Shown here: positions 22,356 through 22,478 of the stretch, piece by piece
Numbering within the stretch: position 1 is the first letter of the stretch
How the letters are laid out: the number at the start of each line of letters is the position of its first letter
Program-made: the position numbers and the translations under genes
Source of the DNA: a virus
Length of the DNA: 64,000 bases
Virus record (IMG/VR): IMGVR_UViG_3300030329_006605
Span: 30,013-94,012 of that record
Strand: one strand, 5' to 3'
Notes under the pieces: model-generated
The model's database searches: none
What the model was told of the DNA's origin: nothing
Seen by the model: only the letters and a program-made list of their open reading frames with translations

Positions 22356-22478
22356 CTAGGGGTGCTTGGGCTTACGCCTAAAGCTACCCTTGCCCCTCTT
22401 GGGCTTGTGGGGGCGCGTGGCGCTACCCATCAACCCTTGAGGGTTTACTCTGGCTTTGATATTTTTGGTTTTAGCCAT
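22356..22478 (-). CDS. arfA: ArfA-like alternative ribosome-rescue peptide (40 aa)
   Basis: Not in ORF track: MAKTKNIKARVNPQGLMGSATRPHKPKRGKGSFRRKPKHP; compare E. coli ArfA KKGKGSYMRKGKH. Confidence 0.65.
   Translation of the reverse strand: MAKTKNIKARVNPQGLMGSATRPHKPKRGKGSFRRKPKHP

What the first reader, a model, noticed from the sequence alone, without database searches (positions are those of the whole stretch)
22356..22478. Unannotated 40-aa ArfA-like ribosome-rescue peptide, encoded already truncated
Seen: KPKRGKGSFRRKPKHP-stop, translationally coupled to an acidic peptide in an early operon. Known: ArfA (KKGKGSYMRKGKH) enters the empty mRNA channel and recruits RF2. E. coli ArfA is made active from a truncated non-stop mRNA and is controlled by tmRNA. 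Inference: stopping right after the motif would make a constitutive version that frees ribosomes stalled on degraded host mRNA. The N-terminal RF2-activating part is divergent, so it could instead be an inhibitor.
Basis: partly seen in the sequence, partly recalled or inferred. Interest (0 to 1): 0.7.

Follow-up and report, generated by a model that had tools for sequence, protein, structure and literature searches.

The report
Phage mini-protein with ArfA ribosome-docking tail
An uncultured marine phage encodes a real, conserved 40-residue basic peptide whose second half matches the part of the bacterial rescue factor ArfA that plugs the empty mRNA channel of stalled ribosomes, so the phage probably brings its own always-on ribosome-rescue factor, though no experiment has tested this.

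Summary
A 40-codon ORF lies at 22356-22478 (- strand). Its ATG overlaps the stop of a 47-residue acidic ORF, and both sit in a leaderless early unit driven by a near-consensus sigma70 promoter.

Residues 20-39 match ArfA residues 26-45:
- Pfam ArfA: E=3e-5, 23.8 bits, just under the 25.5 cut-off.
- PDB: all top hits are ArfA.
- hhalign: 96.9%.

This stretch covers the strand that pairs with RF2, the mRNA-tunnel loop and the KH pair. The gene ends one residue after KH, near the shortest ArfA reported as active.

The N-terminal 19 residues are not ArfA-like. They carry a motif of their own that is strongly conserved across about 78 sequence clusters and 22 viral contigs. dN/dS is about 0.13.

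The best reading is a constitutive rescue factor that depends on a release factor. A tunnel plug or inhibitor is not excluded.

Two phage genome papers already label similar genes "ArfA" from annotation alone. This scan has also flagged ArfA-like phage peptides on many other genomes, though word look-up found this subfamily only in this genome. I class it as a new variant of a known kind, function untested.

The parts
22356..22478 (-). ArfA-like peptide gene: 40 codons plus TAG, net charge about +13, no acidic residue
   Evidence: purifying selection; 78 related clusters
22362..22421 (-). C-terminal module (residues 20-39), homologous to ArfA residues 26-45: RF2-pairing strand, GKGS loop, basic tunnel segment and KH pair
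   Evidence: Pfam ArfA E=3e-5; PDB ArfA hits; hhalign local 96.9%; ArfA residue roles from PMC8012679 and PMC5378476
22419..22457 (-). Family-specific N-terminal motif (residues 8-20), invariant or nearly so across the family, with no counterpart in ArfA or in the PDB
   Evidence: (invariant R10, G15, M17)
22471..22614 (-). Upstream 47-residue acidic ORF, first cistron of the unit; its stop overlaps the ArfA-like ATG
   Evidence: a homologue lies just downstream of an ArfA-like gene in another genome (P0023)
22620..22648 (-). Sigma70-type promoter (-35, 17-nt spacer with TG, -10); the ATG follows 5 nt after the -10 box, so the mRNA is probably leaderless
22132..22344 (-). Third cistron of the unit, 70 residues, starting 11 nt after the ArfA-like stop; no family match
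22054..22068 (.). G+C palindrome after the third cistron and before the next promoter region; possible end of the transcription unit
   Evidence: read directly; not tested further

Best explanation
The gene encodes a phage-made, constitutively expressed ribosome-rescue factor of the ArfA type. It is transcribed early by host RNA polymerase from a consensus promoter, as the second cistron of a leaderless mRNA, and is translated by re-initiation after the acidic ORF. The free peptide is disordered. Its basic C-terminal half threads into the 30S mRNA tunnel only when the tunnel is empty, that is, on ribosomes stalled at the 3' end of broken or degraded mRNA. The segment just before it and the family-specific N-terminal motif then engage a class I release factor, most likely RF2, which hydrolyses the peptidyl-tRNA. 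Ribosomes are thereby returned to the pool for phage protein synthesis. Because the gene has a normal stop codon and no degradation tail, it escapes the tmRNA control that keeps bacterial ArfA off. Shown here: the gene is real, conserved and in an early unit, and its C-terminal half is homologous to ArfA 26-45. Inferred: ribosome binding, release-factor recruitment and the benefit to the phage.
For: Pfam ArfA is the only family hit. 45 of 47 family members hit only ArfA, best E=1.2e-7, and three relatives carry precomputed PF03889. The PDB profile search returns ArfA chains first. hhalign local gives 96.9% for family 20-39 against ArfA 26-45. The nearest ESM Atlas clusters are ArfA-domain peptides. 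The aligned stretch holds the RF2 beta-augmentation strand (Q27-E30), the tunnel residues 31-48 and the KH pair (PMC8012679, PMC5378476). The peptide ends at the ArfA-46 equivalent, close to the shortest active ArfA truncation (Asn47, PMC5378476). Family tails after KH are short, median 6 residues. Purifying selection is strong. AlphaFold2 predicts no secondary structure (mean pLDDT 62), which suits a peptide that would fold only on a partner. BrfA has only the KH pair in common with ArfA in sequence, yet it too recruits RF2 (PMC8012679), so a divergent N-terminus does not rule out release-factor recruitment. The pelagiphage HTVC027P gene annotated ArfA is highly expressed during infection (PMC12753301).
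Against: The window peptide scores 23.8 bits against a Pfam cut-off of 25.5. The hydrophobic ArfA N-terminal minidomain is not detectably present; it includes A18 and F25, which are needed for RF2 activation and specificity. The window peptide has a proline inside the segment aligned to the RF2-pairing strand. The 94-kb record holds no release-factor, ArfB or SmpB gene that would tie it to a rescue pathway. No conserved gene partner was found. The host is unknown. There are no experimental data for any phage ArfA-like protein.
Confidence: 0.55

Rival explanations
1. Tunnel plug or rescue inhibitor. The ArfA-like tail docks in the empty mRNA tunnel, but the non-ArfA N-terminus does not activate a release factor. 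The peptide would then occupy stalled or vacant ribosomes, compete with tmRNA-SmpB and host ArfA, or hold RF2 in the inactive compact state as ArfA(A18T) does. This would disturb host translation or quality control to the phage's advantage.
For: Only ArfA 26-45 is conserved, and the activating N-terminal minidomain is missing. ArfA(A18T) binds and recruits RF2 but does not trigger hydrolysis (PMC8012679), so tail plus strand without a proper N-terminus gives a dead-end complex. The gene is expressed early, when host shut-off functions act.
Against: A plug would also block ribosomes the phage needs, since leaderless phage mRNAs use the same tunnel. The N-terminal motif is more conserved than a mere spacer would be, which suggests a specific productive partner. 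No toxicity or shut-off data exist.
Confidence: 0.22
2. A general nucleic-acid-binding basic peptide, for example an RNA or DNA chaperone or a binder of the co-encoded acidic peptide. Its resemblance to the ArfA tail would then be convergent composition rather than shared function.
For: The match is short (about 20 residues) and rich in Lys, Arg and Gly. The window peptide is below Pfam's gathering score. An acidic peptide is adjacent in two genomes, in different order.
Against: The match is position-specific rather than compositional: GKGS, an aromatic residue, an Arg two residues after it, and KH all fall in register. It recurs in 45 of 47 members with ArfA as the only Pfam hit, and hhalign gives 96.9%. 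The acidic neighbour is absent from the 23 related loci examined.
Confidence: 0.15
3. Rescue factor that works with a partner other than RF2: RF1, both release factors as in ArfT, or an unknown phage or host hydrolase, with the new N-terminal motif as the adaptor.
For: The N-terminal motif is unrelated to ArfA's RF2-specific contacts. The review of rescue pathways describes further release-factor-dependent factors that are unrelated in sequence (PMC8012679). That ArfT accepts RF1 or RF2 is from my own knowledge.
Against: No candidate partner gene is linked. No release-factor-like gene is present in the record.
Confidence: 0.08

Closest known systems
ArfA (YhdL), alternative ribosome-rescue factor A of beta- and gammaproteobacteria; Pfam PF03889; PDB 5MGP, 5MDV, 5U4I
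   Same: Residues 20-39 align without gaps to ArfA 26-45, with 11/18 identities to E. coli. This stretch includes the GKGS loop, the basic tunnel residues and the KH pair. Both are small, very basic proteins; the window peptide is predicted to lack secondary structure on its own.
   Different: The N-terminal 19 residues are unrelated and six residues shorter, with no hydrophobic minidomain (A18, L19, F25). The gene has a normal stop codon, with no hairpin or non-stop mRNA and no hydrophobic degradation tail. It is phage-encoded and sits just under Pfam's cut-off.
Phage genes annotated ArfA from sequence alone: Citromicrobium phage vB_CbaS-RXM g10 (PMC8953757) and pelagiphage HTVC027P gp30 (PMC12753301)
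   Same: These are phage-borne small basic proteins with the G-[KR]-G-S core. RXM g10 passes Pfam ArfA (29.6 bits) and gp30 does not (20.2 bits). gp30 is highly transcribed during infection.
   Different: RXM g10 keeps the canonical ArfA segment before the core and a hydrophobic tail. Neither has the N-terminal motif of the window family. Neither was found by the family profile at E<=0.001.
phrog_37108: 48-residue protein of Enterococcus phages EF1, EF5, H1 and VRE9_1 to VRE9_4
   Same: 80% identity to residues 25-39 of the window peptide. Pfam ArfA 23.5 bits. Short tail after KH.
   Different: The N-terminal 28 residues are different, and the host is a Firmicute, outside the beta/gamma-proteobacterial range reported for ArfA (PMC8012679). 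These are cultured phages and so a practical test system.
BrfA (B. subtilis) and ArfT (Francisella), release-factor-dependent rescue factors
   Same: The working model is the same: a basic tail in the mRNA tunnel plus a lineage-specific N-terminus that recruits a release factor. BrfA shares the KH pair (PMC8012679).
   Different: No detectable sequence similarity: the family profile search of the PDB at E<=10 returned ArfA but no BrfA chain.

Membership tests
ArfA (Pfam PF03889) | Score at or above Pfam's gathering cut-off of 25.5 bits | tested here: not met
   The window peptide scores 23.8 bits, E=3e-5. Some relatives do pass: best E=1.2e-7 among 47, and precomputed PF03889 on P0001, P0004 and P0005.
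ArfA (Pfam PF03889) | Basic C-terminal segment that fills the mRNA tunnel (ArfA 31-48), with the GKGS loop and KH pair | tested here: met
   Ungapped alignment of residues 22-39 to ArfA 28-45. hhalign aligns 20-39 with 26-45 at 96.9%.
ArfA (Pfam PF03889) | Strand Q27-E30 that pairs with the RF2 domain 2/4 sheet | tested here: inconclusive
   The segment is aligned (residues 21-24), but only the Arg is conserved and the window peptide has a Pro there. Pairing is through the backbone and cannot be judged from sequence.
ArfA (Pfam PF03889) | Hydrophobic N-terminal minidomain (helix 15-24, A18, F25) that activates RF2 | tested here: not met
   No significant alignment N-terminal of residue 20. The N-terminal 23 residues hit nothing in the PDB. 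A different conserved motif stands in its place.
ArfA (Pfam PF03889) | Expression from a hairpin-truncated non-stop mRNA under tmRNA control, with a hydrophobic C-terminal tail | tested here: not met
   An in-frame TAG follows one residue after KH. The 3' region folds no better than shuffles (z=-1.16). Family tails have a median of 6 residues.
ArfA (Pfam PF03889) | RF2-dependent peptidyl-tRNA hydrolysis on non-stop ribosomes | not testable with these tools
   Needs biochemistry or genetics.
phrog_37108 (Enterococcus phage 48-aa protein) | Full-length match to the PHROG profile | tested here: not met
   Only residues 25-39 match, E=5e-5. The EF1 protein matches the profile over 1-48 at E=9e-36.
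BrfA | Sequence similarity to solved BrfA chains | tested here: not met
   No BrfA chain appears among PDB hits at E<=10.

The most novel reading that the evidence does not exclude
The conserved non-ArfA N-terminal motif has turned an ArfA tunnel-docking tail into something other than a rescue factor. It could be a phage weapon that locks release factor or stalled ribosomes in a dead-end state, or that shuts out tmRNA-SmpB. It could also be an adaptor that brings a different partner to empty-tunnel ribosomes. Either would be a new class of small phage effector aimed at the ribosome's decoding centre.
Probability: 0.2. Interest if true: 0.8.

Novelty: new variant of a known kind. Interest (0 to 1): 0.55.

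Why it matters
If it is active, many marine phages carry a minimal, unregulated ribosome-rescue factor and express it in the first minutes of infection. That would mean clearing ribosomes from broken mRNA limits phage growth, whether the breaks come from host shut-off, mRNA decay or RNase-based defences. The family is also a natural experiment on ArfA. It keeps exactly residues 26-45, stops at about the minimal active length and swaps the activating N-terminus. It could therefore show which parts suffice for tunnel sensing and which for release-factor activation. Related genes in cultured Enterococcus, Citromicrobium and SAR11 phages make the idea testable.

Tried and rejected
- NCBIfam gave no hit for the peptide or its neighbours.
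- Megablast of the region against cultured phages found nothing. TerL and rIIA find only distant relatives at 24-37% identity, so no cultured close relative or host is known.
- tblastn of a second family member against phages found nothing.
IMG/VR loci were used instead.
- Centring a genome search on E. coli was not possible. A class-level search around a MAG gave only 3 ArfA genes in 300 genomes, so the ArfA profile used for hhalign is dominated by enterobacteria.
- The global hhalign alignment of the N-termini is low-confidence and was not used.
- Fusion partners (P0036, the L024 giant protein, P0030) have no informative domain.
- I looked for a conserved functional partner. The acidic peptide and the 70-residue protein are not linked to the gene in relatives.
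- I looked for an arfA-style hairpin and found none.
- The AlphaFold2 model has no secondary structure, so no fold search was run.
- One paper listed for 'ArfA' (PMC10680825) has no such term in its current version.

Full report
**What is there**

The window is the right-hand 64 kb of a 94-kb IMG/VR virus record. It encodes a terminase, a portal, rIIA, rIIB and a DNA ligase. It has no close cultured relative: TerL is about 24% identical and rIIA about 35% identical to known phages.

Its ATG (22478-22476) overlaps the TAA (22473-22471) of an upstream acidic ORF, and there is no Shine-Dalgarno sequence.

The acidic ORF starts at the ATG at 22614 (47 residues), not at the GTG that the ORF list shows. 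That ATG lies 5 nt after the -10 box of a promoter with 11 of 12 consensus matches plus an extended TG (22648-22620). A 70-residue ORF follows 11 nt after the ArfA-like stop. The gene is therefore the middle cistron of a short, probably leaderless, early unit.

The unit is one of about 14 near-identical promoter-plus-ATG units between 20.0 and 29.3 kb.

**Is it a gene?**

Yes.
- A profile of the first six homologues finds 78 clusters, each at 50% identity, at E<=0.001 in 1.8 billion representatives. Of these, 44 are at E<=1e-10.
- 22 IMG/VR contigs and one MAG contig encode it.
- Over a 31-codon core in 16 loci, differences by codon position are 757:653:1945. Median dN/dS is 0.13, and dS is often saturated.

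**Relation to ArfA**

- Pfam ArfA is the only hit for the window peptide: E=3e-5, 23.8 bits against a 25.5 cut-off, residues 21-39 on model positions 25-43.
- Of 47 family members scanned, 45 hit ArfA and nothing else, best E=1.2e-7.
- The family profile searched against all PDB sequences returns six ArfA chains first, at E of about 0.003-0.006.
- BLASTP against E. coli ArfA, read from the MG1655 record, gives 11/18 identities over residues 22-39 against 28-45.
- hhalign of the family against an ArfA alignment gives 96.9% probability for 20-39 against 26-45.
- The nearest ESM Atlas clusters are ArfA-domain peptides of 38-51 residues.

According to the literature, ArfA Q27-E30 add a strand to the RF2 domain 2/4 sheet. 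Residues 31-48 fill the mRNA tunnel, and the KH pair sits in a tunnel pocket (PMC8012679, PMC5378476). The conserved half of the phage peptide is therefore the sensing and docking part of ArfA.

**Where it differs**

Nothing N-terminal of residue 20 aligns with ArfA with any confidence. That part hits nothing in the PDB.

Instead the family has its own motif at residues 8-20, invariant in the closest relatives. R10, G15 and M17 are invariant across 47 diverse members. ArfA's hydrophobic N-terminal minidomain is absent; its A18 is needed to switch RF2 to the active form and F25 gives RF2 specificity (PMC8012679).

By eye the phage motif could be an ArfA-like Pro-plus-hydrophobic-pair segment with about four extra residues. 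Compare the bacterial ArfAs and RXM g10. This is a suggestion, not a result.

**"Already truncated"**

The peptide ends at the position equal to ArfA residue 46. ArfA is reported active when truncated at Asn47 and inactive when cut after Met40 (PMC5378476, citing Chadani 2011).

Among 56 family representatives with a complete motif, the tail after KH has a median of 6 residues, and 48 have 10 or fewer. The window gene belongs to the shortest class.

There is a true stop codon and no notable hairpin (z=-1.16). The tmRNA-dependent control of bacterial arfA therefore cannot apply. AlphaFold2 predicts no secondary structure (mean pLDDT 62), so the peptide alone probably has no stable fold and would take shape only on a partner.

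**Context in relatives**

In most relatives the gene is the first cistron, with its start codon 6-7 nt after a -10-like hexamer. In L003 and L009 the start lies 12 nt after the GC of a sigma54-type -24/-12 element. It is usually found between homologues of the DUF932 protein (window 28109-28993) and the 156-residue protein (window 27154-27624).

The acidic ORF and the 70-residue ORF are not linked to it in the 23 loci examined. In one other genome, however, a homologue of the acidic peptide lies just downstream (P0023, 51% identity). The gene thus behaves as a self-contained early cassette.

The record has no release-factor, ArfB, SmpB or tmRNA gene.

The host is unknown. One relative sits on a contig binned with a Pseudomonadales MAG, and the promoters are of the proteobacterial type.

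**Mechanism**

The best-supported model is an always-on ArfA analogue with four steps:
1. Early expression.
2. Docking of the tail in an empty mRNA tunnel.
3. Recruitment of a class I release factor through the aligned strand and the new N-terminal motif.
4. Peptide release and ribosome recycling.

Only homology of the docking half, conservation and early placement are shown here; all the rest is inferred. BrfA recruits RF2 although it shares only the KH pair with ArfA (PMC8012679), so a divergent N-terminus does not exclude this.

The main rival is a tunnel plug or dead-end recruiter like ArfA(A18T). I give about 0.55 to release-factor-dependent rescue, 0.22 to a plug or inhibitor, 0.15 to an unrelated basic binder and 0.08 to rescue through another partner.

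**What is already known**

- Two phage genome papers label genes ArfA from annotation alone: RXM g10 (PMC8953757) and HTVC027P gp30, which is highly expressed in infection (PMC12753301).
- I read both genes. RXM g10 is canonical and passes Pfam. gp30 does not pass. Neither has this family's N-terminal motif.
- JGI names one relative ArfA.
- Enterococcus phages carry a 48-residue protein (phrog_37108) with the same tail.
- I found no experimental study of any phage ArfA-like protein.
- Earlier notes of this scan report ArfA-like phage peptides on many other genomes. By word look-up this subfamily was seen only in this genome.

**Verdict**

The feature is real. It is a new variant of a known kind, and its function is untested.

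Noticed in passing
window 20000-29300, - strand; also 37120-37154: About 14 near-identical sigma70 promoters (-35 TTGACA, 17-nt spacer ending TGC, -10 TATATT), each with an ATG 5-9 nt after the -10 box. The early genes, and rIIA, appear to be made from leaderless mRNAs.
   Followed up: partly
window 22682-22714 and 22022-22042; L003:3340-3392, L009:7950-8003: Sigma54-type -24/-12 elements (GG-N10-GC) stand upstream of the early promoters. In two relatives such an element sits so that the ArfA-like ATG is 12 nt after the GC, that is, at the expected start site. This was also noted by another first-stage finding.
   Followed up: partly
window 52666-52846, - strand: manA RNA motif (Rfam RF01745, 68 bits), a cis-regulatory RNA.
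   Followed up: no
L024:7200-10697 and protein P0036: The ArfA-like module also occurs inside a 1165-residue phage protein (residues 287-307) and at the extreme C-terminus of a 532-residue protein. The other parts match only PHROGs of unknown function.
   Followed up: partly
L014:454-864 and protein P0023: In some relatives the ArfA-like frame has no stop after the KH pair and runs through the next promoter into the next gene. This could be a fusion, a sequencing error or a non-stop design.
   Followed up: no
L033:74-256: A bacterial ArfA that passes Pfam (36.9 bits) ends one residue after the KH pair, so naturally short ArfA genes also exist in bacteria.
   Followed up: no
L028:5947-6081: A 44-residue ORF beside a probable quinolinate synthase (nadA) gene (named from reading its translation, not from a family search) in a high-GC MAG has the same basic core but lacks the phage N-terminal motif. 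It may be another small rescue-factor lineage.
   Followed up: no
window 17316-19343, - strand: Sugar-nucleotide genes (a glucose-1-phosphate nucleotidyltransferase and an RmlD-like reductase) lie next to the early region. These host-like genes may explain the 'provirus' label of the record.
   Followed up: no
window 45249-45324, + strand: A single tRNA-Gly (GCC), the only tRNA in the window.
   Followed up: no
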